Origin: Micrococcales bacterium | GTDB lineage: Bacteria; Actinomycetota; Actinomycetes; Actinomycetales; WQXJ01 | Reading direction: 5' to 3' | Assembly (NCBI GenBank): GCA_009784895.1 | Contig: WQXJ01000004.1 | Location: 3,193-67,192, forward strand | Length of the DNA stretch: 64,000 bases | Part shown: positions 26,661-45,274 of the stretch, in pieces | Numbering within the stretch: position 1 is the first letter of the stretch | Layout of the letters: every line of letters starts with the position of its first letter | The notes under the pieces: generated by a model | The model's database searches: none | What the model was told of the DNA's origin: nothing | Seen by the model: the letters and a program-made list of their open reading frames with translations, nothing else | Program-made: the position numbers and the translations under genes

Positions 26661-26833
26661 TGCAGGTCAACTCGCCGTGACCTTGTATCAAAGCAGCCCA
26701 GGCCGCCGCGACCTTGTATCAAAGCAGCCCAGGCCGCCACGACCTTGCACCAAAGCAGGTCGACTCGCCGTGACCTTGTATCAAAGCAGCCCAGACCACC
26801 ACGACCTTGCACAGAAACAGGTGCGACTTTCGG
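26661..26833 (+). repeat. Tandem array of about 5.5 contiguous 31-bp units
   Basis: GACCTTG recurs at 26679, 26710, 26741, 26772 and 26803, an exact 31-bp period. There are two unit subtypes (gaccttgtatcaaagcagcccaggccgcc.. and gaccttgcaccaaagcaggtcgactcgccgt). An inverted partial copy, gctgctttgatgctaagtc, lies at 26911-26929. Confidence 0.85.
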
Positions 26834-35837: not shown

Positions 35838-38800
35838 TCAGACCGGCTGTTCGGTTTCGGTAACCAGGCCGTTTTCGACCGCCAGACGGCCCTCTCTGAG
35901 CGCGCCCTCCAATACGCCGTCCAGCCGCTGGCGCGCCTCGGAGTCCATCTGGACGCCAAAAGCACTGGCGGTCCTGGCAAAGGTTTCGTCACGCCCCTTA
36001 CCTGGGTCACGGCACACGGCCTCGATCATGGCATTACGCAGCTCGTGGTACGGGATTTCGTCGAGCTGCCGCCTGTCACCCGGCACGCGGAAACCGGCGT
36101 AGCTGGGAGGGTCAACGCCAGCTGGCCAGGCGATTGAGTCGCCGTTTTGAGCGGCGTGGAGTAGCCCCACCGGCAGGGACTTGCGAAGGGACTTGCGCTG
36201 TTCATCGGTCATTTGCCCGATGCCGAAGCGCGCCGCCACGATCCGTATCAGCCGGTCAGCCACGACTGGGCCTTCTTCGCTGACCACCGCGATGGCGACC
36301 TGGCCTACCGGGCTGACCTCCTTTTTGGAACGGCTGACCATGTCCTCTGGTCGGTGGCCGGCCTGCTCGGCGGCGGCCTTGAAGACTAGGGTGTCAGCGG
36401 TTCGCTCTGGGCCCTCTAAGGCCTGTGGCACAGCGGAGTCGTGGTCAATGGCCGGGGTGGCGGTCGGGGGTTGCGCTGGATCTTGCGAACTGGGCTCTGC
36501 CTCGGCCACCGGTGGCGGTCCAAAGTCAGCCGGCATCGGCTGCAGAACCTCGGTCTCATGCGACGTGCCGGGGGCATGCGGAAGCTCGGTCTCGCGAGAA
36601 AGGGGCAGATCAGCTGGGGATGGCGGTGACACCTCGGCGTCATGCGAAAGCTCGGACTCGCGAGAAAGGGGCAGGTCAGTTGAGGGTTGATGCGGAAGCT
36701 CGGTCTCGCGGGAAACAGGCAGATCAGTTGGGGATTGCTGCGAAAGCTCGGTCTCGCGGGAAACAGGCAGATCAGCTGGGGATGGCGGTGGCACCTCAAG
36801 GTCATGCGAAAGCTCGGACTCGCGGGAGATGGGCAGATCGGTTGGGGATGGCTGTGACACCTCGGGGTCATGCGGAAGCTCGGACTCGCGGGAAACAGGC
36901 AGATCAGCTGGGGGTTGCTGCGAAAGCTCGGACTCGCGGGAAACAGGCAGATCAGTTGGGGGTTGCTGCGAAACCTCGGACTCGCGGGAAACAGGCAGAT
37001 CAGTTGGAGGTTGCTGCGAAACCTCGGACTCGCGGGAAACAGGCAGATCAGTTGGGGGTTGCTGCAGAACCTCGGACTCGGGGGGTAGGTCAAACCCAGC
37101 CGGCACCGGCTGCAGAACCTCGGTCTCGCGGGAAAGGGGCAGGTCAGTTGAGGGTTGATGCGGAAGCTCGGTCTCGCGGGAAAGGGGCAGATCAGTTGGG
37201 GGTGGCTGTGGAACTTCAGACTCGGGTAGTGGCTCAAAGTCAGCCGACATCGGCTGCGGAAGCTCGGACTCGCGGGAAACAGGCAAATCAGTCGGGGATG
37301 GCGGTGGCACCTCGGGGTCATGCGAAAGCTCGGACTCGCGGGAAATGGGTGGGGTCGGGTCGGGGTTGGTTAGTCTGACAATTGCCTCGACCTCGCTTTG
37401 CGGTGACTTCAGCCAGGCAGGCAGCCAAATCCGGTGGACCGCCAACCAATCGAGTTGCCCAGCCAAGATCCAAGCTGGCAGCCCGTCGCGATCGCCCACA
37501 CTGGGCCGCCTGGCCCAATTGGGCCCATCAAGCATGACCGCCACCCAAGACGGCGACCCCTCGCGCCTGACCGCCAAGTCGACCCGGAAGCTCGACAGCC
37601 CATAGTTTTCGACCACCTCTAGGCCAGCCGCCCTCAACGCCGCCGCCACCTGGTCCTGGTGCAAATCCTGAGGTGCTTTATCCGCCCCTACCAGCCAGCG
37701 CTGGCCGTGTTCGGCCGCCAGGAGGTAGTCCTTAAGGTGGGCCAGGCCCAGCGAACTCGAACCCGACAAGTCCCAACCAGTGGGGTCGAACGAGGTCAAA
37801 ACCACCACCTGGCGGCGAGCCCTGGTCACCGCTACGTTCAGCCACCTCTCGCCGTCCACCCGGGTCAGCAGACCCCAATTGGACGGCGCCCGTCCCTCGC
37901 CATCTGGCGCCACCGCCAAGGTCATAATGATGACGTCGCGCTCATCGCCTTGGACACTGTCCAGGTTCTTGACAAACAACGGCGCGTCGGTCCGGCTCAG
38001 GGCCGAATCAAGCCGGGCATCAGACACGCGTACCTCGTCCAGCAAATCCAGAATCAGATCGCGCTGCTGATCGCTGAACGCCACCACTCCAAAGGTCCAC
38101 TGAGGATGCGACGCCAGTTGATCGCGCAGCTCGTGCACCACGCCGTAGGCCTCAGACCGGTTGACACCACCCACCCCGGTAACGTCGTTTTCCCAAGTGC
38201 CAGTGACCCGCCGCAACACGACTCCGCGCGGCGCACCGGCATCGGCCGGAGGGCTGGGGAACGTCGCCAAACGCCCGCCGTAGTACTGGGTGTTGGAGAA
38301 GGCCAACAACGACTCATCGAGTGATCGATAGTGCCAGGTCAGGTCGAGCTTTGGCCAACCCAGCCGGGCCGCCTCGACCAGAATCGAGTCCTCGGCGGCC
38401 GGAACCAAGCTAGCCTCCTCCCGGCCAGAACTGGCCGGATCTGAGGCGTTCTGTTCAGCCGAAACTGAGCCAATTGAGGCCGGCGCTTGCTTCGAGTCCC
38501 CAACCACCACCACGGCCTGGCCACGCCCGGCGGCGCCAATCGCTTCCGGCACCCGGATCTGGGAAGCCTCGTCGAAGACGACCACGTCAAAGCCCTCAAG
38601 ATCGCCGGGCAAGTAGCGAGCCACCGAGGCCGGGCTCATCAAGAAACAGGGCACCAGCTTGCGCACCTCCTGTCCGCCAACCTCTAACAGTTGACGGAAG
38701 GTGAGCCCCCCTCGCCGCCGAGCCAGCTGAGAGAACAACTCGCCGATCTGGGCGAACGAAACATCGCCGTCAAAGTTGCGGGCCGCCACGATTCGGGCCG

Positions 38801-41800
38801 GCAGCTCAGTACAGAGACGTTGGCGCAGATCAGCCGCCTGGGTGATGAACCGATCAACCCGCCCCTGATAGGCCACTGGATCGAAGCCTCGCAAACCGGT
38901 GCCATCCAACCGCTCAACTAGGGTGGCTTGAGCGATCGCCGCCTGGATCATTTCGTCTAGCTGGCCGCCATCGACGGCGCCTTGGTCGAGAACTTGGTCG
39001 GCCCCTTGCACACCCAGTTGAGCCAGACGGTCCAATTCGCGGCGAACCCGAAGGAAGGCCGCCAGCCGCGGCGCGCCTTTCTCCAGATCGGCCTGCCAGT
39101 CATCAAGCCTGTTTACAATCTGATCGAGAAGCGATTGGTTGCCTCGCCACTGCTCCAGCCGCTCCGGCGTGACATCTAGAAGCCTGAACAACTCCCGCAG
39201 GACCTCAGCCGTCCGTTTGACGTCTCGAGCCGACCAACCCCGGGCCCTGTGCCCGGCTTGGTCCCTCACTTGCTCGGCCGCCTGGTCGAAGGTCGCCTGA
39301 TCGATCAACCCGTTGCCTCGAAGCAACCAACCTGCCCGCACAGCTCTTTCTGCCAGCCAGAGCGACTGTTCGACCTGCGAATAGTCGGCCTCGACATAAG
39401 GGTTCCAGCGTTTGGGCAGGTCGATGCCAGGAAGGGCAGCCAGGGCCGCCTCGACATCAAGTACGGCCAATTCGGCCCGCTCAGCGCCTTGCAGTATCTC
39501 CGTCAATTGCTTCAGCGGCACGTTTTCGGCATCACGCCAATAGCCCTCGAGCTCGGTCACAATCTCCCGGCGCATCCTGGCCTTGCCAATTCGGCTGGAA
39601 TCAGCCCGGTGGGCCAGCCCAATCACCGCACCCCATTCGAAACCAATCACTTCAGGGTCAAACCACTCCAGCAAGGGTTTGTACTCGATACGCAGACGCC
39701 TCAATCGTTTCGTCGCCACTTCAGCCGTGCGCAGCCATTCTTCGGCCCCGATGCCCTCAACTTGGCGCGGTGTTAACGCGTCTTTGGCCCCAATTGTGTC
39801 CAGCCACTGGGCCAAGGCGTCCAACCCGGCTGGGTCACGCGCAGCACAGGCTAGTTGCCAAACCGGCCCTTCAAGACCGGACGCCACCTCCCCTAAAGCC
39901 TCAACTGCCTGCGCCAGGCTCTTCAGGTCAAGCCCAGGCTGTGCCGCTCGCCGCTCCAGGCCGGCATCGGCCGGTTTTGTGTCAACTTGGCCGGCCACGG
40001 ACAGATTCGCGCCAACCAGCCGCCAAGGCGAATCTGCCACCAAACCGCCCATTTGGCCTAGGTCTTGGGCCAACCGGCCTCCCGCCTCGACCACCGCCGC
40101 CAACCGCTGATCCTGCCGCAGAACCTCAGGCCCCACCGTCAAGACCGGGTCTGGGCCACGCGTTTCGACCACGGCCGCAGCCCCCAGAAGATCCTGGTGG
40201 GCCTGCCAAACCGACTTGCCCATGGGGCCCGGGCTGTGCAGCCGCTGCGGGTACTGCGACAAATGCGCCACCTCTTCGCGCTGAGCCGCTAGGGCAACGT
40301 CCCAGCCAGGTGAAGTGCCCGGAGTGAATTCGATGGCTCGGCGCAGTTGGTCTATGACGGCCGCCACGGTCTGGTGCCGGCCATACAGGTCCAGGCAGAA
40401 CGGCGCCAACCCAACCGAGTCCAGGCGCCGTTTGACCACGTCCAAGGCAGTTTGCTTCTGAGCCACAAAAAGGACCGATTTGCCCGTCACCAGGCAATGC
40501 GCAATCAGGTTGGTGATGGTCTGAGATTTGCCTGTCCCCGGCGGGCCTTCTAGGACAAATGAATGGCCACCGGCAGCCCAACGAACGGCCTGGGCCTGGC
40601 CTGAATCGGCTGCCAAAGGTAGGTAGCTGGCAAACTCGCCGGCCTCTGGCAGGGAGGGTGTGGCGGGAGTCGCCATCCCGGTCTGGTTGGCTCCCAGAGC
40701 TAGGCCGTGAACAGGCTCACGCTGGCTCAAATGAGACCAGTTCATGGACAAGTCGTGCCAAATATCCATGGTGTGGGTCTGAAGGCAAATCAGGTAGGCC
40801 ACTGGCTCGACCCGGAAACAGTCGAACCTGGAGCCGGCGATGGCCCGGCCCGTCGCCTCCAGGATCTGTTCAACTTCGAGACTGCCTTCGTCACCGGTTA
40901 GCTGAGCCAGCGCTGGGATTTCCAGGCCCCAAACTGTCCGCAGTTTCTCAGCCAGGCAGAGGTTAGGGACAGCCCGGCGCGCCGGATCCAACACCATTTC
41001 GAAGTGCTGGCCACTGCGTGACTCGGTCAAATCAACCGGCACCAGACAAAGCGGCGCGTCGCCGCGTCCCTGGCGGTCCGCTTCCATCCATTGCAGCGCA
41101 CCAAGGGCCAAGTAGAGGCTGGCCTGGCTGGTCTCTTCCATGGCCAGGCGCGAGCGCCGGTCAAGGCTCCTCAGCCTGGCCGCGAAAGCGCCTTTTGACA
41201 CAGTGGCATAAGCCACGCCAGAGACCTCCAGAGCGTCAATTAGGCCCCCTCCGTCCGCCATTTGGGACCCTTCGCCGCCTCCTGGCCTGCTGGCCTGGGC
41301 TAACGAGTCCTTTGGCAATAGCTTGACCGGGCGCCCGGCGGCGACCACGGACCCCAAACGGCCCAGGCCGGCGGCAGGTAGATGCAGCGGCACCGTCAAG
41401 CCGGATCTGCGTTTGGTCAGCGGATTGCAGTCTGACGAATCGACTAGCGCCCGCTGCCAGGCCTGCACCCGGCTGGGGATCGCGGCATCGGGCGCAATAC
41501 TGGCTGATGCCGGTGGCTTCGCTGGGGCAGGTGGCGGCGACGGCGGCACCGGGGCAGGTGGCGGCGACGGCGGCACCGGGGCAGGTGGCGGCGACGGCGG
41601 CACCTGGGCAGGCGGCCCGGACGGCTTAGAGGTTTGGTCTGGCGGCAGCGGCCGGCGGGCCTGACGCGGCTGCGGCGACCGGCGCGGCTGCGGTGGCCGG
41701 CGAGGCTGACGCCGCTGGGCCGGCCGATCTGACTCGGTTGACTGCGGTGGCCGGGTTAGCTCGGGCTTTTGGACTGGCGGCGCAGTTGGCTGGGCTGGCT

Positions 41801-43829
41801 CGGGTGGCGCGGTTGGCGCAGGTTCCGGCGGCGACGGCCTCGCTTGTGGTGCCGGATGCGGCTGTGGCGGGTGGACCGGGCCGTCTTTGGCCACGCGGCC
41901 ACGAAGACCCGCGCCTGGCGGCAACCCGGCGACAGCCTGGCCCAGCTGGCCCACGATTGGCAGAGGTTTGACCACCCCGTGGGCGGCATGGACATCAACC
42001 AGGTAGGTGATCTGGTCCTGACCGGATTGGAGATGCTTGGCGGCAATCGTGCTGGCCTGCTCAAAGGTCAGCGCCTGGAAGCGCAAACACAAGGCGGTGG
42101 CCTCGACCCCAACCAAACGTCTCGACGCCGCCACCGAGGCCAGCGTTCTCTTGTCTTCGACGGCCACCACCGGCAGTTGGGCATCCTCAGTCAGAAAGCC
42201 GGCGAAGGCGTGGTCCGCCGTGACGGCGATGACTGGGTGGATGCCAGCCCGCTCCAAAGCTGCGGTGTAAATGCAGGTCAAATCCAGGCAAGTGCCCCGC
42301 CTGTCATGCAGAACTTCCCAGTGGGTGCGAATGCGCTGGCCAGAGCCCTCGAATGTCCCGGCCGGATCAGACAGCAGCAGACGGCGGCTGGCCAAAGCGT
42401 CGTAGATGGCAGCGGCAATCGCCATGACCCTTTCGGGGCCCGACTCATAACCATTCAGGCTGGCCGAACCAGTCTTCTGCTCGAGGCGCTGGCTGGCCGC
42501 CCTGAGCACTGCGTCAATGGCCGGGTCCTCGGGGCGGACAAAAGCAGCAATGGCCTCTGGCACGGACATAGCCCACCACTCGTTGGCGGCCAGTAGCCGG
42601 ATCACGCCCGATCCCCAGGCCTTGGCCTCACCGGCGTCCAGTCCTAGGCGGATTGTCGTCATGACGGCCTCATTCAGCCCGCCAAATACGGCCGGATCAA
42701 CCGAAATCACCCGCCTGGTGGCGGGCAACTCCAACAATTCCCCCGGCCCCAACGGTCCAACCTGGATGTCAACCTGGGCAGTGACTTCATCAGTTCTTGG
42801 GCCCGGCGCATCAATCACAACTGATAACGTCACCGGCTTGGTCCTGGTATCGGTGGTGTTGACCACGGCCACAGTGGTCAGCGGCGTGGCCCGGTTGGAA
42901 GCGAGGGCCAAGTTGAAAGCGTCACGATAGGCCAGATAAGCCACCACGCCGTTCGACTGGGTTGTGCAGGATCGGATACCGGGACCAAGTTCACGCTCGG
43001 CGAATGGTGCCAGCCCCCTAGCCGTCACTGAGCCCGGACCGGAACCAACAGCCGCACCGGCGTCGACGCCCACGGCACCTCCGCCAGGAGTCGGGCCCAA
43101 AGCGGCTCTGGAGCCCTCAACCGGTTTTCGGCCCGGTGCCGCGCCTGGCTGGTGGTCTGGGCGTTCTTTGGCTGTCGAATCCGCCTTTGGGTCTGGCCGG
43201 CGCCTTGGGCCCAGGGAGCCTTTCTGGTCCGCCGGCTCGGCGACAGTGACAACTACCGGGATCTCTTGGGTGCCAAAATCGGTCAGAGTCGGCTGGTAGG
43301 GAAGCGATTGATGCCCATCACCGGCGTCTAGCAAGCCGATCAAGAAGCCCACCTCTTGGTCCAAGTTGAGCGCCTGGGCCAGCTGGGCCATAGTGTCCAA
43401 AGCGCGGTCGGCCTGCCGGCGGGTGATGGAATCTGGCCGGGAGACTCGGCCGGCTTGGCGGACAATCTCCCCCACCATGGCTCGGTACTCCTGGCCAAAG
43501 GCCGGCATGACCCTGGTGTGGGCTTCGATTGCCTGCAGCAACTGCTCTAGGTTCTGGGCCGAGCCGACGCTGGGCTCTTGGCCTGGTTGCGGGTCTGGCC
43601 TGGGCGTTGGTTTTGGCCTTGGCTGCTCGGGCCAGGTTCCGGGCAAGATCTGACTGTTCTGTCCCCACAAGGGGTCCTGCGCAGATGACGGCAAGGCCGC
43701 CTCGACCATGGATCTGAGGGCTGTTTCGAGCGCGCTAAGGCCCATGGCCAACCGCTCGGCGTCGCTCTGGTTGGTCGTCATTGCCCTATTGAACCTGTCC
43801 AATCTTGCGGCTCGAAGCCACTGGCCCAT
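35838..43829 (-). CDS. Giant (2,663-aa) multidomain helicase. Modules in order are a transglutaminase-like N-module, a Pro-rich linker, a DUF4011-like region, an Upf1-like SF1 helicase (AAA_11/AAA_12), a DUF559/Vsr-like nuclease fold, a tandem-repeat tract and a DUF3320-like C-terminus.
   Basis: Uninterrupted ORF. Transglutaminase-like motifs RGTCLDL...DHAFAGF, with the Cys codon at 42288-42290. DUF4011-like motifs RVQAWQRALVDSS and LYLALGALQW..APLCLVPV. Helicase motifs are Walker A GPPGTGKSQT (40518-40547), FDEASQ (~38560-38580), WHYRSLDESLLAFSN, VQGDERDVII and VAVTRARRQV. Nuclease-fold motifs SSFRVDLAV...VAVMLDG...DRD...HRIW (~37400-37650). C-terminal EEGPVVADRLIRIVAARFG...IAWPAGVD. Confidence 0.85.
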   Translation of the reverse strand: MGQWLRAARLDRFNRAMTTNQSDAERLAMGLSALETALRSMVEAALPSSAQDPLWGQNSQILPGTWPEQPRPKPTPRPDPQPGQEPSVGSAQNLEQLLQAIEAHTRVMPAFGQEYRAMVGEIVRQAGRVSRPDSITRRQADRALDTMAQLAQALNLDQEVGFLIGLLDAGDGHQSLPYQPTLTDFGTQEIPVVVTVAEPADQKGSLGPRRRPDPKADSTAKERPDHQPGAAPGRKPVEGSRAALGPTPGGGAVGVDAGAAVGSGPGSVTARGLAPFAERELGPGIRSCTTQSNGVVAYLAYRDAFNLALASNRATPLTTVAVVNTTDTRTKPVTLSVVIDAPGPRTDEVTAQVDIQVGPLGPGELLELPATRRVISVDPAVFGGLNEAVMTTIRLGLDAGEAKAWGSGVIRLLAANEWWAMSVPEAIAAFVRPEDPAIDAVLRAASQRLEQKTGSASLNGYESGPERVMAIAAAIYDALASRRLLLSDPAGTFEGSGQRIRTHWEVLHDRRGTCLDLTCIYTAALERAGIHPVIAVTADHAFAGFLTEDAQLPVVAVEDKRTLASVAASRRLVGVEATALCLRFQALTFEQASTIAAKHLQSGQDQITYLVDVHAAHGVVKPLPIVGQLGQAVAGLPPGAGLRGRVAKDGPVHPPQPHPAPQARPSPPEPAPTAPPEPAQPTAPPVQKPELTRPPQSTESDRPAQRRQPRRPPQPRRSPQPRQARRPLPPDQTSKPSGPPAQVPPSPPPAPVPPSPPPAPVPPSPPPAPAKPPASASIAPDAAIPSRVQAWQRALVDSSDCNPLTKRRSGLTVPLHLPAAGLGRLGSVVAAGRPVKLLPKDSLAQASRPGGGEGSQMADGGGLIDALEVSGVAYATVSKGAFAARLRSLDRRSRLAMEETSQASLYLALGALQWMEADRQGRGDAPLCLVPVDLTESRSGQHFEMVLDPARRAVPNLCLAEKLRTVWGLEIPALAQLTGDEGSLEVEQILEATGRAIAGSRFDCFRVEPVAYLICLQTHTMDIWHDLSMNWSHLSQREPVHGLALGANQTGMATPATPSLPEAGEFASYLPLAADSGQAQAVRWAAGGHSFVLEGPPGTGKSQTITNLIAHCLVTGKSVLFVAQKQTALDVVKRRLDSVGLAPFCLDLYGRHQTVAAVIDQLRRAIEFTPGTSPGWDVALAAQREEVAHLSQYPQRLHSPGPMGKSVWQAHQDLLGAAAVVETRGPDPVLTVGPEVLRQDQRLAAVVEAGGRLAQDLGQMGGLVADSPWRLVGANLSVAGQVDTKPADAGLERRAAQPGLDLKSLAQAVEALGEVASGLEGPVWQLACAARDPAGLDALAQWLDTIGAKDALTPRQVEGIGAEEWLRTAEVATKRLRRLRIEYKPLLEWFDPEVIGFEWGAVIGLAHRADSSRIGKARMRREIVTELEGYWRDAENVPLKQLTEILQGAERAELAVLDVEAALAALPGIDLPKRWNPYVEADYSQVEQSLWLAERAVRAGWLLRGNGLIDQATFDQAAEQVRDQAGHRARGWSARDVKRTAEVLRELFRLLDVTPERLEQWRGNQSLLDQIVNRLDDWQADLEKGAPRLAAFLRVRRELDRLAQLGVQGADQVLDQGAVDGGQLDEMIQAAIAQATLVERLDGTGLRGFDPVAYQGRVDRFITQAADLRQRLCTELPARIVAARNFDGDVSFAQIGELFSQLARRRGGLTFRQLLEVGGQEVRKLVPCFLMSPASVARYLPGDLEGFDVVVFDEASQIRVPEAIGAAGRGQAVVVVGDSKQAPASIGSVSAEQNASDPASSGREEASLVPAAEDSILVEAARLGWPKLDLTWHYRSLDESLLAFSNTQYYGGRLATFPSPPADAGAPRGVVLRRVTGTWENDVTGVGGVNRSEAYGVVHELRDQLASHPQWTFGVVAFSDQQRDLILDLLDEVRVSDARLDSALSRTDAPLFVKNLDSVQGDERDVIIMTLAVAPDGEGRAPSNWGLLTRVDGERWLNVAVTRARRQVVVLTSFDPTGWDLSGSSSLGLAHLKDYLLAAEHGQRWLVGADKAPQDLHQDQVAAALRAAGLEVVENYGLSSFRVDLAVRREGSPSWVAVMLDGPNWARRPSVGDRDGLPAWILAGQLDWLAVHRIWLPAWLKSPQSEVEAIVRLTNPDPTPPISRESELSHDPEVPPPSPTDLPVSRESELPQPMSADFEPLPESEVPQPPPTDLPLSRETELPHQPSTDLPLSRETEVLQPVPAGFDLPPESEVLQQPPTDLPVSRESEVSQQPPTDLPVSRESEVSQQPPTDLPVSRESELSQQPPADLPVSRESELPHDPEVSQPSPTDLPISRESELSHDLEVPPPSPADLPVSRETELSQQSPTDLPVSRETELPHQPSTDLPLSRESELSHDAEVSPPSPADLPLSRETELPHAPGTSHETEVLQPMPADFGPPPVAEAEPSSQDPAQPPTATPAIDHDSAVPQALEGPERTADTLVFKAAAEQAGHRPEDMVSRSKKEVSPVGQVAIAVVSEEGPVVADRLIRIVAARFGIGQMTDEQRKSLRKSLPVGLLHAAQNGDSIAWPAGVDPPSYAGFRVPGDRRQLDEIPYHELRNAMIEAVCRDPGKGRDETFARTASAFGVQMDSEARQRLDGVLEGALREGRLAVENGLVTETEQPV
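36540..37350 (-). repeat. In-frame 48-bp tandem-repeat tract inside the giant helicase gene, encoding PTDLP(V/L)SRE(S/T)E(L/V)(S/P)QQP-type 16-aa units with 22-aa variants
   Basis: There are 13 clear DLPxSRE(S/T)E units plus about 3 degenerate ones. Four near-identical consecutive 48-bp units occupy 36879-37070 (ctcggactcgcgggaaacaggcagatcagttgggggttgctgcgaaac). Confidence 0.9.
41524..41604 (-). repeat. Perfect 3 x 27-bp tandem repeat encoding (PPSPPPAPV)x3 within the Pro-rich linker of the giant gene
   Basis: ggggcaggtggcggcgacggcggcacc repeated three times without mismatch (41524-41550, 41551-41577, 41578-41604). Confidence 0.9.
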
Positions 43830-44074: not shown

Positions 44075-45274
44075 TTGGCAAATCTGGCTCGAAAACGATC
44101 ACCAGGGCGCGCTTCGCTTAGGCCGGGTTCTGCCCGCGCGGTCGTTGGGACAACTGACGTGACCCACCACCCCGGACCGTCCGTTAGTGCGGCTGTCCTG
44201 CTGCTGACCGAGCGCCTTGAGCCGCTAATACGCCGCAGGCTAGAACCGATGCTGGGCTCTGCGCCGTGGACTGATGCCCTGGTGGAGCTCGACCGGGTCA
44301 GGGGCTGTGAGCCGGTCACATTTGAAGCCAATGACCCGAAAGCCCAGCTGCGGCTGGTAACCGAACGGCTAGGCCAGCTGGGGTACCCGTTCGAACCCGA
44401 CGATGGCCACGGGTCGGTAACCAATTCGGGCCTGGCCCTTCGAGTGACGGTTTGCCGTTTGGCTCAAGGCAGCCAGTTCACCGCACCCGAGGCTTGGCGG
44501 GCCTACGACCTGGTCCGCCAACTGCTCGACGCACTGGGCGATAGTGAAGGTGCCGTCGCGGCCTCGACCGGCCAGGCTGCCTTGGTCGAGTTGGCCAGCG
44601 AACAAGAGGGTCTGACCTTGGATGAGATCCGGGGGCCGGAACTAGTGAACCTGCCGGCCAAACCTCGGTCGAAAAGAAAGGAGCCAGACCAGCCCGTTGT
44701 GCCGGCATCGGAAGTCTGGGATCTCCCGTTTGACAGCCTCAAGCGGCTGATTGGCCGCCGCCGCCCTGCGTTCGAACCGTGGGTGGCGGTACCCGTTGGT
44801 CAACCAGATCAGCTTTCCCGAACCGACCAGCCAGCCGTCAGAGACCAAATTAGGGCTCTGGCCCTGGAAATCGCCAAGTTCGAAGGCCCCATTCACGTCC
44901 ACCGGTTGGCCACCCTGATCGCTCACTCGTTCGGTGTGCCCCGCCTGTTCCCAAAGCGCTCGGTCGATATCACCGACCAGATCCTCCTGACCCAGGGCCT
45001 CGAGGTTGACGTAGACGACTTCATCTGGCCATTTGCCGTCGACCGGGTGGGCTGGCGCCAGTTCAGGCCCAATGATTCAACCGTCGACCGCCCGGCCTGG
45101 GCCATCAGCCCGGTTGAGATCGCCAATGCGGCCGAGTTTTGGCTGGAGCGATCGGTTGGAGGCAGCGACCTGGAAGGGACTATTCTGCGAACCTTTGGCC
45201 AACACCGAGCCAGTCGAGACAACCGCAGGCACATCCGCTTGAGCATCCAAGACCTGGCCCTGGCCCACGCCTGA
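44075..45274 (+). CDS. DUF3320-like domain protein with an N-terminal helical domain resembling a degenerate Swt1-like HEPN; divergent partner of the giant helicase
   Basis: The C-terminal half (ALEIAKFEGPIHVHRLATLIAHSFGVPRL...DFIWPFAVDRVGWRQFRP...ILRTFGQHRASRDNRRHI) aligns by eye with the giant protein's C-terminus (VSEEGPVVADRLIRIVAARFGIGQM...DSIAWPAGVDPPSYAGFRVP...TFARTASAFGVQMDSEARQRL). The ORF opens at TTG 44075. GTG 44159 is a likelier start. Confidence 0.65.
   Translation: MANLARKRSPGRASLRPGSARAVVGTTDVTHHPGPSVSAAVLLLTERLEPLIRRRLEPMLGSAPWTDALVELDRVRGCEPVTFEANDPKAQLRLVTERLGQLGYPFEPDDGHGSVTNSGLALRVTVCRLAQGSQFTAPEAWRAYDLVRQLLDALGDSEGAVAASTGQAALVELASEQEGLTLDEIRGPELVNLPAKPRSKRKEPDQPVVPASEVWDLPFDSLKRLIGRRRPAFEPWVAVPVGQPDQLSRTDQPAVRDQIRALALEIAKFEGPIHVHRLATLIAHSFGVPRLFPKRSVDITDQILLTQGLEVDVDDFIWPFAVDRVGWRQFRPNDSTVDRPAWAISPVEIANAAEFWLERSVGGSDLEGTILRTFGQHRASRDNRRHIRLSIQDLALAHA

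What the first reader, a model, noticed from the sequence alone, without database searches (positions are those of the whole stretch)
36540..37350. About 0.8 kb of in-frame 48-bp tandem repeats (PTDLPVSRESELSQQP units) between the nuclease-like and DUF3320 domains
Seen directly: 13 clear DLPxSRE(S/T)E units plus about 3 degenerate ones. Four consecutive 48-bp units (36879-37070) differ at only a few positions, while flanking units are progressively diverged and include 22-aa variants (…SHDPEVPPPSPTDLP…). Near-identical central units imply recent expansion or ongoing unequal recombination, so repeat number is probably variable between strains. The tract is an acidic Ser/Pro-rich disordered spacer with a fixed short motif, which could act as a multivalent docking array. 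It also generates long artefactual ORFs in other frames (36425-37378 on the plus strand, 36416-37321 on the minus strand). I do not recall such repeats in this helicase family.
Basis: seen in the sequence. Interest (0 to 1): 0.6.

Follow-up and report, generated by a model that had tools for sequence, protein, structure and literature searches.

The report
Repeat-expanded acidic linker in defence helicase-nuclease
A giant helicase-nuclease of a predicted anti-phage type, from an uncultured Micrococcales bacterium, has had the floppy acidic linker between its DNA-cutting and DNA-binding ends stretched about threefold by 16 in-frame copies of a 15-23-residue unit, which is a real but fairly ordinary kind of protein evolution with no shown special function.

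Summary
Window 36513-37361 (minus strand) holds 16 in-frame tandem units of 45-69 bp. Twelve carry an exact DLPxSRE(S/T)E, and four neighbouring 48-bp units differ by only 1-4 nt.

The gene (35838-43781, 2647 aa) is a giant DUF4011 / SF1 helicase / Vsr-type REase (MTES_1575) / tandem winged-helix (DUF3320) protein. This type was described by Anantharaman et al. 2013. It matches the PADLOC models PDC-S37 and Hhe.

The tract sits in the linker between the nuclease and the winged helices. In 144 relatives this linker is 52-236 aa (median 104.5), net acidic in 94%, and unconserved. Here it is 346 aa, the longest seen.

AlphaFold gives pLDDT 35-48 and no secondary structure across the tract, with confident domains on both sides. 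Eleven of 144 relatives carry small, unrelated tandem repeats in the same linker. None of 132 folded control segments does. None of the relatives has this motif.

I read it as a lineage-specific minisatellite expansion of a permissive acidic disordered linker. Evidence for selection on the motif is weak (P about 0.07). Copy-number variation could not be tested. An assembly artefact is unlikely. A docking-array role is unsupported but not excluded.

The parts
36513..37361 (-). In-frame tandem-repeat tract: 16 units of 36-69 bp (12-23 aa), ORF residues 2157-2439. The core motif is (P/S)(T/A)DLP(V/L/I)SRE(S/T)E(L/V). Higher-order periods are 114, 144 and 228 bp.
   Evidence: TRF; unit segmentation; motif count; core search against shuffles
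36879..37070 (-). Youngest part of the array: four consecutive 48-bp units that differ pairwise by 1-4 nt.
36312..36512 (-). Non-repetitive remainder of the linker (ORF residues 2440-2506). The first 60 aa have net charge -8. AlphaFold pLDDT is mostly below 50 up to about residue 2479.
37377..37658 (-). Vsr-type restriction-endonuclease-fold domain (Pfam MTES_1575, residues 2058-2151), ending 5 residues before the tract starts.
   Evidence: Pfam 46.8 bits against a 38.2 cut-off; AlphaFold pLDDT 75-97
35856..36311 (-). Two winged helix-turn-helix units (the DUF3320 region, ORF residues about 2507-2658) that follow the linker.
   Evidence: Pfam DUF3320 19.4 bits, below cut-off; AlphaFold H-H-H-strand-strand twice at pLDDT 80-95; Foldseek best matches are tandem winged-helix proteins, all weak, E >= 0.006; Anantharaman 2013 equates DUF3320 with wHTH
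37794..41447 (-). DUF4011 (40941-41447) plus the SF1 Upf1-like helicase core. This comprises AAA_11 from 40607 downward, Walker A GPPGTGKS at 40524-40547, Walker B VVFDEASQ at 38559-38582, and AAA_12 at 37794-38384.
   Evidence: Pfam; motif positions; PADLOC PDC-S37 E 2e-203 and Hhe E 1e-97
35838..43781 (-). The whole gene: 2647 aa from the MTTNQ start used by both public gene calls. The longest ORF reaches 43829. It equals MCL2802613.1, 'MAG: DUF4011 domain-containing protein [Micrococcales bacterium]'.
41523..41603 (-). A second in-frame repeat in the same gene: three exact 27-bp copies (VPPSPPPAP x3) in the Pro-rich spacer between the N-terminal region and DUF4011. The ENA re-assembly has two copies.
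43368..43733 (-). Weak Swt1-like HEPN match at the N-terminus (E 0.021, below threshold).
42195..42296 (-). Possible transglutaminase-like Cys...His core (GTCLDLTC ... DHAFAGF). Seen by eye only and not detected by Pfam.
   Evidence: sequence reading; expected from the family architecture in Anantharaman 2013
44249..45274 (+). Divergently transcribed neighbour gene: a small protein with a weak HEPN_Swt1 match plus DUF3320.
   Evidence: Pfam DUF3320 25.9 bits, HEPN_Swt1 E 0.0024; gene call in L001; 26% identity to the giant protein's first winged helix

Best explanation
The tract is a lineage-specific, in-frame minisatellite expansion of the naturally disordered, acidic linker that joins the Vsr-type nuclease domain to the C-terminal tandem winged-helix DNA-binding domains of a giant HEPN/transglutaminase/SF1-helicase/REase/wHTH conflict-system protein (MTES_1575 or Hhe/PDC-S37 type).

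An ancestral 16-residue segment was multiplied by replication slippage and unequal recombination. This included multi-unit blocks, which explains the 114-, 144- and 228-bp higher-order periods and the 52-nt exact match between units 468 bp apart. Every unit length is a multiple of three, so the protein stays intact.

The product is a roughly 350-residue flexible tether with net charge about -50, about three times the family median. It lengthens the reach between nuclease and DNA-recognition module and increases their electrostatic shielding.

The recurring DLPxSRExE motif is mainly identity by descent among young copies rather than proof of a binding site.

Shown: the anatomy, the disorder, the position in the linker, the uniqueness in the family, and the family-wide acidic and repeat-prone nature of the linker. 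Inferred: the duplication mechanism and the tether role.
For: - **In-frame array of mixed ages.** Sixteen in-frame units.
- **Block duplication.** A 52-nt exact repeat at offset 468 and higher-order TRF periods point to duplication of multi-unit blocks.
- **A pure insertion.** In the alignment with 14 homologues the tract is an insertion of about 270 columns inside the linker.
- **Linker length.** Among 144 relatives with both flanking domains located, the linker is 52-236 aa (median 104.5) against 346 here.
- **Linker composition.** Ninety-four per cent of the relatives' linkers are net negative, with median 12% Pro and 17% Asp+Glu. The query is the same in kind but more extreme.
- **The linker is repeat-prone.** Eleven of 144 relatives show significant internal periodicity in this linker, with unrelated units of period 5-30 aa. 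None of 132 length-matched segments from the folded helicase/REase region does. An Actinoplanes species has several small in-frame repeats at the same place.
- **Disorder.** Charge-hydropathy position. AlphaFold pLDDT 35-48 with no secondary structure across model residues 128-448, flanked by REase at 75-97 and winged helices at 80-95.
- **Founder effect.** GC3 of the tract (0.61) is the lowest of any 283-codon window in the gene (mean 0.705), as expected when one unit's codons are amplified.
- **Family identity.**
Against: - The seven residues D, L, P, S, R, E, E never change in the 12 canonical units, although four of their codons vary synonymously. That could mean the peptide itself is selected.
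- The invariant columns were picked after the fact, however. Counting minimal events over all 12 aligned codons gives 7 non-synonymous against 7 synonymous. The binomial P is 0.07 against neutrality, and there is no significant clustering by column (P = 0.50).
- An unrelated zinc-ribbon protein family carries 3-9 tandem copies of PRP(S/G)DLP(V/A)(S/A)RE, sharing DLPxSRE at the peptide level but not the codon level. This hints that the motif may mean something.
- No read data were available, so the true copy number is unverified.
- The duplication mechanism and the tether role are inferred, not observed.
Confidence: 0.68

Rival explanations
1. Multivalent short-linear-motif array. Each DLPxSRExE unit is a docking or modification site, for example for a partner protein, or a Ser/Thr phospho-acceptor flanked by acidic residues. 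Copy number would set avidity.
For: - Seven motif positions are invariant in 12 units despite synonymous variation at four of them. Positions between and after them show pN/pS above 1.
- E(S/T)E is kept even in the degenerate units.
- A DLPxSRE-type repeat is conserved across 41-57% identical members of an unrelated zinc-ribbon family, with different codons.
Against: - The motif is absent from the equivalent linker of all 144 relatives, and [DE]LP..R[ED] occurs only once in the remaining roughly 239,000 residues of those proteins.
- It is absent from the rest of the 64-kb window in all six frames.
- The fair selection test is marginal (P = 0.07), and the column pattern is no more clustered than chance.
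- Four of the 16 units have lost part of the motif.
- With 5.8 billion proteins searched, a chance match to one other repeat family is plausible. Repeats inflate the score, and the E-value was only 3.9e-4.
- No literature mentions the motif.
Confidence: 0.12
2. Tunable acidic autoinhibitor or DNA mimic. The polyanionic tract folds back on the DNA-binding surfaces of the winged helices or nuclease, raising the threshold for DNA engagement. Expansion would strengthen or lengthen this gate in a self-toxic defence enzyme.
For: - The linker is net negative in 94% of 144 relatives, so acidity is a family property and not a quirk of the repeat.
- The tract alone contributes -44 of the protein's -87 net charge.
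- It lies directly between a nuclease and the DNA-recognition domains.
- Electrostatic autoinhibition by acidic disordered tails is an established principle in other DNA-binding proteins (my own knowledge, not tested here).
Against: - The flanking folded domains are not basic overall. The REase is -2 and the wHTH region is -2.
- AlphaFold shows no contact or confidence gain for any unit.
- Acidic Pro-rich linkers are common in bacterial multidomain proteins in general (my own knowledge).
- There is no experimental handle here.
Confidence: 0.12
3. Assembly artefact. The array or its length was created or collapsed by short-read assembly of a metagenome.
For: - The sequence comes from a metagenome-assembled genome.
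- Another tandem repeat in the same gene (27 bp) is assembled with 3 copies in one assembly and 2 in the other.
- Extra fully identical central units, if present, could have been collapsed.
Against: - Two assemblies (the window, which encodes the NCBI protein MCL2802613.1, and ENA k141_5728192) are identical across the whole tract, with 0 mismatches in 27.9 kb.
- The longest exact internal repeat is 52 nt, then 47 and 43. Any k-mer or read above about 60 nt places every unit uniquely.
- All 16 units keep the reading frame, and the flanking domains are in frame.
Confidence: 0.05
4. Contingency (phase-variable) locus that switches the gene on and off by changing repeat number.
For: A tandem array with near-identical units lies inside a defence-type gene.
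Against: Every unit length (36, 45, 48, 51, 66, 69 bp) is a multiple of three. Gain or loss of units changes length but never the frame. No variation is seen between the two assemblies.
Confidence: 0.03

Closest known systems
Giant HEPN-transglutaminase-SF1 helicase-Vsr REase-2xwHTH proteins (MTES_1575 of Microbacterium testaceum, Brachybacterium squillarum; Anantharaman et al. 2013, PMC3710099)
   Same: - Same order of domains that could be detected: DUF4011/SF1 helicase, MTES_1575 REase, DUF3320/winged helices.
- A weak HEPN_Swt1 match at the N-terminus.
- Same bacterial order (Micrococcales).
- No methyltransferase partner is evident next to the gene.
   Different: - In MTES_1575 the first wHTH starts 16 residues after the REase annotation ends (1990 to 2006). 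Here about 350 residues, mostly tandem repeats, intervene.
- The HEPN and transglutaminase domains are not confirmed by profile here.
Hhe (Gao et al. 2020 single-gene defence system) and PADLOC candidate PDC-S37
   Same: Strong profile matches: PDC-S37 E 2e-203 over residues 860-2138, and Hhe E 1e-97. These are DUF4011 helicase plus Vsr-like nuclease proteins.
   Different: - The best matching stretch of the PDC-S37 profile ends at residue 2138, where the tract begins.
- The extra roughly 790-residue N-terminal region and the repeat tract are not part of those models.
- Anti-phage activity of this protein is untested.
Tandem repeats that create new intrinsically disordered regions in proteins, as in Borg elements (Schoelmerich et al. 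2023, PMC9879509)
   Same: - In-frame nucleotide tandem repeats that arise independently and yield disordered, SLiM-like peptide arrays.
- That paper even lists an MTES_1575-domain subfamily among repeat-bearing proteins.
   Different: - Here it is a bacterial chromosomal gene.
- The units are longer (16-22 aa against mostly 3-18).
- The array is partly old and degenerate rather than perfect.
In-frame VNTRs and minisatellites in bacterial linker regions, such as the Pro/Thr linkers of actinobacterial glycoside hydrolases and the lysostaphin propeptide 13-aa repeats (my own knowledge)
   Same: Repeat expansion in a permissive, Pro-rich, disordered segment between folded domains, with every unit length a multiple of three.
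   Different: - Copy-number polymorphism, the defining property of a VNTR, could not be shown here.
- The protein is cytoplasmic and acts on nucleic acids.
Zinc-ribbon proteins with PRP(S/G)DLP(V/A)(S/A)RE(A/T)(V/I) 13-aa repeats (P0039, P0189-P0195; uncharacterised metagenomic family)
   Same: - They share the DLPxSRE core.
- They are tandem, Pro-rich, and variable in copy number (3-9) between homologues.
   Different: - Different period (13 against 16-22 aa) and different codons.
- Unrelated flanking domains: an N-terminal zinc ribbon, and in one member a transmembrane segment.
- The resemblance may be chance.

Membership tests
MTES_1575-type giant HEPN/TGase/SF1/Vsr/wHTH conflict proteins (Anantharaman 2013) | SF1 (Upf1-like) helicase core with DUF4011 | tested here: met
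   Pfam DUF4011 62.6 bits, AAA_11 46.6 bits and AAA_12 50.1 bits, all above cut-off. Walker A GPPGTGKS and Walker B DEAS are present.
MTES_1575-type giant HEPN/TGase/SF1/Vsr/wHTH conflict proteins (Anantharaman 2013) | Vsr-family REase domain C-terminal to the helicase | tested here: met
   Pfam MTES_1575 46.8 bits against a 38.2 cut-off, residues 2058-2151. AlphaFold pLDDT 75-97.
MTES_1575-type giant HEPN/TGase/SF1/Vsr/wHTH conflict proteins (Anantharaman 2013) | Two C-terminal winged helix-turn-helix domains (DUF3320) | tested here: met
   DUF3320 scores 19.4 bits, below the 25-bit cut-off. The region nevertheless aligns with DUF3320-bearing homologues. AlphaFold gives two H-H-H-strand-strand units at pLDDT 80-95. 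The best Foldseek matches are tandem winged-helix proteins, although all are weak (E >= 0.006).
MTES_1575-type giant HEPN/TGase/SF1/Vsr/wHTH conflict proteins (Anantharaman 2013) | N-terminal HEPN domain (Swt1/Abi2 family) with Rx4-6H | tested here: inconclusive
   HEPN_Swt1 E 0.021, 15.6 bits against a 27.5 cut-off. I could not find an Rx4-6H motif by eye, so the domain may be degenerate or misaligned.
MTES_1575-type giant HEPN/TGase/SF1/Vsr/wHTH conflict proteins (Anantharaman 2013) | Transglutaminase-like peptidase domain | tested here: inconclusive
   No Pfam match at E <= 0.1 in residues 1-794. A Cys...His pattern (GTCLDLTC...DHAFAGF) is visible in the sequence.
Hhe / PDC-S37 anti-phage defence candidates (PADLOC) | Match to the system's protein profile | tested here: met
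   PDC-S37 E 2.2e-203 and Hhe E 1e-97.
Hhe / PDC-S37 anti-phage defence candidates (PADLOC) | Protection against phage | not testable with these tools
   This needs an experiment. Context is only suggestive: two toxin-antitoxin pairs flank the gene.
Variable-number tandem repeat (in-frame VNTR) | Head-to-tail array with unit lengths that are multiples of three | tested here: met
   Units of 36, 45, 48, 51, 66 and 69 bp.
Variable-number tandem repeat (in-frame VNTR) | Copy number differs between strains or within the population | not testable with these tools
   No close relative exists in any collection searched. The two assemblies of the same population are identical in the tract.
Short-linear-motif (SLiM) array | Motif conserved within the array beyond what common descent explains | tested here: inconclusive
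   There are no non-synonymous changes in the 7 motif codons. The unbiased event count, however, gives P = 0.07, and the column pattern is not clustered.
Short-linear-motif (SLiM) array | Motif conserved at the equivalent place in orthologues | tested here: not met
   Absent from all 144 relatives' linkers.
Intrinsically disordered interdomain linker | Low hydropathy and high net charge, no predicted structure, unconserved among homologues | tested here: met
   Charge-hydropathy position; AlphaFold pLDDT 35-48; linkers unalignable between relatives.

The most novel reading that the evidence does not exclude
DLPxSRExE is a genuine bacterial short linear motif that has arisen as tandem arrays at least twice: once here, and once in the zinc-ribbon PRPxDLPxSRE family. 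In this giant defence enzyme the array would work as a copy-number-tunable, polyanionic docking or autoinhibitory module between nuclease and DNA sensor, so that repeat gain and loss adjusts the firing threshold of a self-toxic immune protein.
Probability: 0.1. Interest if true: 0.6.

Novelty: new member of a known kind. Interest (0 to 1): 0.27.

Why it matters
The finding shows how a very large, poorly studied class of predicted anti-phage helicase-nucleases is built. These proteins have a conserved nuclease and a conserved DNA-recognition module, joined by an acidic disordered linker that is free to change length. The linker repeatedly picks up in-frame tandem duplications, and this MAG is the extreme case so far. 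For anyone expressing or dissecting Hhe/PDC-S37/MTES_1575-type proteins, this marks a natural domain boundary and a natural experiment in linker length. If the motif proved functional, it would be a rare example of a repeat-encoded short linear motif array in a bacterial immune protein. As it stands, it is an ordinary example of repeat-driven growth of a disordered region.

Tried and rejected
- **Other strains carrying the array.** An exact degenerate DNA pattern of the unit core found nothing in metagenome contigs or genome contigs. blastn of the tract found nothing in phages or plasmids. A protein-seeded scan of GTDB species genomes found 47 relatives, the best at 47% identity (Gordonia aichiensis), none with the array. 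The copy-number question therefore stays open.
- **The motif in other proteins.** The tract-only protein search returned a single hit, P0039. Oddly, it did not return the source protein itself, probably because of composition filtering. P0039's Pfam 'Lysostaphin_N' match is a sub-threshold repeat-to-repeat match (36.5 bits against 60) and means nothing functionally.
- **An alignment-seeded locus search.** This failed because the alignment had no conserved 7-10-column stretch.
- **The pairwise pN/pS table.** It looked like strong purifying selection on the motif (pN/pS = 0 in the 'strict core'). I rejected that as circular, because the columns were chosen for being invariant and the pairs are not independent. 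I replaced it with a minimal-event count.
- **A nucleic-acid-level role or another coding frame for the tract.** Rejected. The helicase frame is continuous with domains on both sides, and the two nested ORFs are the expected by-product of a stop-free repeat in a GC-rich genome.
- **Literature.** Searches for PDC-S37 and for the peptide motif returned nothing.
Full report
**1. The observation**

Tandem Repeats Finder reports overlapping arrays with periods of 48, 66, 114, 144 and 228 bp between 36575 and 37292. The region lies inside one very long minus-strand ORF, 35838-43829. Its translation shows the repeated peptide directly.

Cutting the peptide at the E(S/T)E anchor gives 16 consecutive units of 22, 17, 15, 16, 17, 15, 16, 16, 16, 22, 22, 16, 16, 22, 12 and 23 residues. 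They cover ORF residues 2157-2439, which is window 36513-37361. Twelve units carry an exact DLPxSRE(S/T)E. One has PPISRESE and three are degenerate (FEPLPESE, FDLPPESE, GTSHETE).

The 27-nt core occurs nine times with up to three mismatches, four of them exact. None occurred in 100 shuffles. Units U7, U8 and U9 differ from each other by one or two nucleotides. The other 48-nt units differ by up to 7 of 48.

They are by-products of a stop-free repeat.

**2. Is it an assembly artefact?**

The protein is in public collections twice. One copy is a 2638-aa ENA gene call. The other is the 2647-aa NCBI protein MCL2802613.1, 'MAG: DUF4011 domain-containing protein [Micrococcales bacterium]'.

The ENA contig (L001) matches the window over 27.9 kb with no mismatch and a single 27-bp gap. 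That gap removes one of three exact copies of a different repeat (VPPSPPPAP) in the N-terminal Pro-rich region of the same gene. Across the DLP tract the two assemblies agree base for base.

The longest exact internal repeats in the tract are 52, 47 and 43 nt. Ordinary reads and k-mers therefore place each unit uniquely. An artefact is unlikely, although collapsed extra copies of the identical central unit cannot be excluded without reads.

**3. The gene**

Pfam finds these domains:
- DUF4011 at residues 795-963;
- AAA_11 and AAA_12, the Upf1-like SF1 helicase core, with AAA_12 at 1816-2012;
- the Vsr-type nuclease MTES_1575 at 2058-2151;
- a sub-threshold DUF3320 at 2510-2541.

PADLOC models match strongly: PDC-S37 at E 2e-203 and Hhe at E 1e-97.

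Anantharaman et al. 2013 described exactly this class. [quoted passage not shown] Examples come from Microbacterium and Brachybacterium. The authors predicted modification-independent, restriction-like defence in which the C-terminal wHTH domains recognise invading DNA.

Here the N-terminal HEPN match is weak (E 0.021). The transglutaminase core is visible only by eye.

The surroundings fit a small defence islet:
- a divergent neighbour gene encodes a small protein with a weak HEPN_Swt1 match plus DUF3320;
- two toxin-antitoxin pairs flank the locus.

**4. Where the tract sits and what it looks like**

It begins five residues after the REase domain and ends about 70 residues before the first winged helix.

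An AlphaFold model of the last 632 residues, built on a 15-sequence alignment, gives:
- the REase at pLDDT 75-97;
- two helix-helix-helix-strand-strand units at the C-terminus at 80-95;
- pLDDT 35-48 with no secondary structure across model residues 128-448.

Foldseek's best matches for the model are tandem winged-helix proteins, though all are weak (E >= 0.006).

The tract is 22% Pro, 14% Ser, 13% Glu and 7% Asp, with net charge -44 over 283 residues. It falls on the disordered side of the charge-hydropathy boundary, while the flanking domains fall on the folded side.

**5. Comparison with relatives**

No relative closer than about 50% identity exists. The word-indexed search gives at most 39%. 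The exhaustive HMMER search of 1.84 billion representatives gives at most 51% over the helicase-C/REase part, with 9947 family members at E <= 0.001. The best named genomes are Gordonia aichiensis (47%) and Actinomyces gaoshouyii (45%).

In an alignment with 14 homologues the tract is a clean insertion of about 270 columns in the linker. For 144 relatives in which both flanking domains could be located:
- The linker is 52-236 residues, median 104.5, against 346 here.
- The linkers are unalignable, net negative in 94% of cases, with median 12% Pro and 17% acidic residues.
- The DLPxSRE motif occurs in none of them, nor anywhere else in the window.
- Eleven of the 144 linkers have significant internal tandem periodicity, with unrelated units of 5-30 residues. 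Examples are LDHTQPLD..., PGGDEASQSDGV x3 and VEPEP.
- None of 132 length-matched control segments from the folded region does.

An Actinoplanes genome shows several small in-frame repeats at the same place.

The family linker is thus a permissive, acidic, repeat-prone spacer. This MAG carries by far the largest expansion seen: periodicity z = 64 against 34 for the next.

**6. History of the array**

Three things point to duplication and conversion of multi-unit blocks as well as single units:
- the higher-order periods of 114 bp (48+66), 144 bp (51+45+48) and 228 bp;
- the recurrence of the ...QP(M/V)(S/P)A(D/G)F... subtype three times;
- a 52-nt exact match between the U4/U5 and U13/U14 junctions, 468 bp apart.

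The tract has the lowest GC3 of the gene (0.61 against 0.72). This is expected if one unit's codons were amplified.

**7. Is the motif selected?**

In the 12 canonical units the codons for D, L, P and S vary synonymously, while D, L, P, S, R, E, E never change. The x, (S/T) and spacer positions show pN/pS above 1.

That looks striking but is partly circular, because the 'core' columns were defined by being invariant. Counting minimal mutational events over all 12 aligned codons gives 7 synonymous and 7 non-synonymous changes. Under neutrality 71.5% would be expected to be non-synonymous, so P = 0.07. Seven events falling in five or fewer of 12 columns is not unusual (P = 0.50).

Most of the motif's constancy is therefore explained by recent common descent of the copies. 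Constraint on the peptide is possible but not shown.

**8. A lead that stays a lead**

The only other protein recovered with the tract as query is P0039 (E 3.9e-4). It is a 287-aa zinc-ribbon protein with six PRPTDLPVSREAV units.

Its homologues are 41-57% identical and keep 3-9 copies of PRP(S/G)DLP(V/A)(S/A)RE. Their codons differ from ours, so the similarity is at the peptide level.

With 5.8 billion proteins searched and repeats inflating scores, chance convergence is a sufficient explanation. Nothing is published on the motif.

**9. Verdict**

The tract is a real, lineage-specific, in-frame minisatellite expansion of the acidic disordered linker between the nuclease and the DNA-recognition domains of an MTES_1575/Hhe-type giant helicase-nuclease.

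The most economical functional reading is a longer, more acidic flexible tether. A motif-array or autoinhibitory role is possible but unsupported.

The general phenomenon of tandem repeats creating disordered regions is known, including in an MTES_1575-domain subfamily of Borg elements. The finding is solid but of modest novelty.

Noticed in passing
window 41523-41603 (minus strand, same gene): Three exact 27-bp tandem copies encode VPPSPPPAP x3 in the Pro-rich spacer upstream of DUF4011. The independent ENA assembly of the same population has only two copies and is otherwise identical over 27.9 kb. This is either real heterogeneity within the population or assembler behaviour.
   Followed up: partly
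window 41665-41708 (minus strand, same gene): A further 18-bp x 2.4 in-frame repeat lies in the Arg/Pro/Gln-rich stretch (RRQPRRPPQPRRSPQPRQ). Three of the four tandem-repeat loci in the 64-kb window lie in this one gene.
   Followed up: no
window 44249-45274 (+): The divergently transcribed neighbour encodes a small protein with a weak Swt1-like HEPN match and a DUF3320 winged helix. It looks like a 'mini' version of the two ends of the giant protein and is a possible partner or regulator.
   Followed up: partly
window 41400-43781 (minus strand, N-terminal ~790 residues of the giant protein): This region is almost blank to Pfam. There is only a sub-threshold HEPN_Swt1 match, with no obvious Rx4-6H. 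A transglutaminase-like Cys...His pattern (GTCLDLTC...DHAFAGF, 42195-42296) is visible by eye. This fits the 2013 description of the family but is unconfirmed.
   Followed up: partly
window 26673-26828: An intergenic direct repeat of 31 bp x 4.4 copies (GACCTTGTATCAAAGCAGCCCAG...), also read as 62 bp x 2. It looks like a set of binding sites (iteron- or operator-like). Its function is unknown.
   Followed up: no
L001 6241-6758 and 18841-19423 (window about 47.0-47.5 kb and 34.3-34.9 kb): Two toxin-antitoxin pairs (PhdYeFM/ParE and RelB/PemK) bracket the giant gene, consistent with a small defence islet.
   Followed up: no
P0039, P0189-P0195 (metagenomic proteins; L002): An uncharacterised family of zinc-ribbon proteins carries 3-9 tandem 13-aa PRP(S/G)DLP(V/A)(S/A)RE(A/T)(V/I) repeats. 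One member has a transmembrane segment and a C-terminal helical domain. Copy number varies between homologues while the motif is kept.
   Followed up: partly
tool behaviour: The word-indexed protein search with the repeat tract alone did not return the protein the tract comes from. Negative results for low-complexity queries with that tool should be read with care.
   Followed up: no
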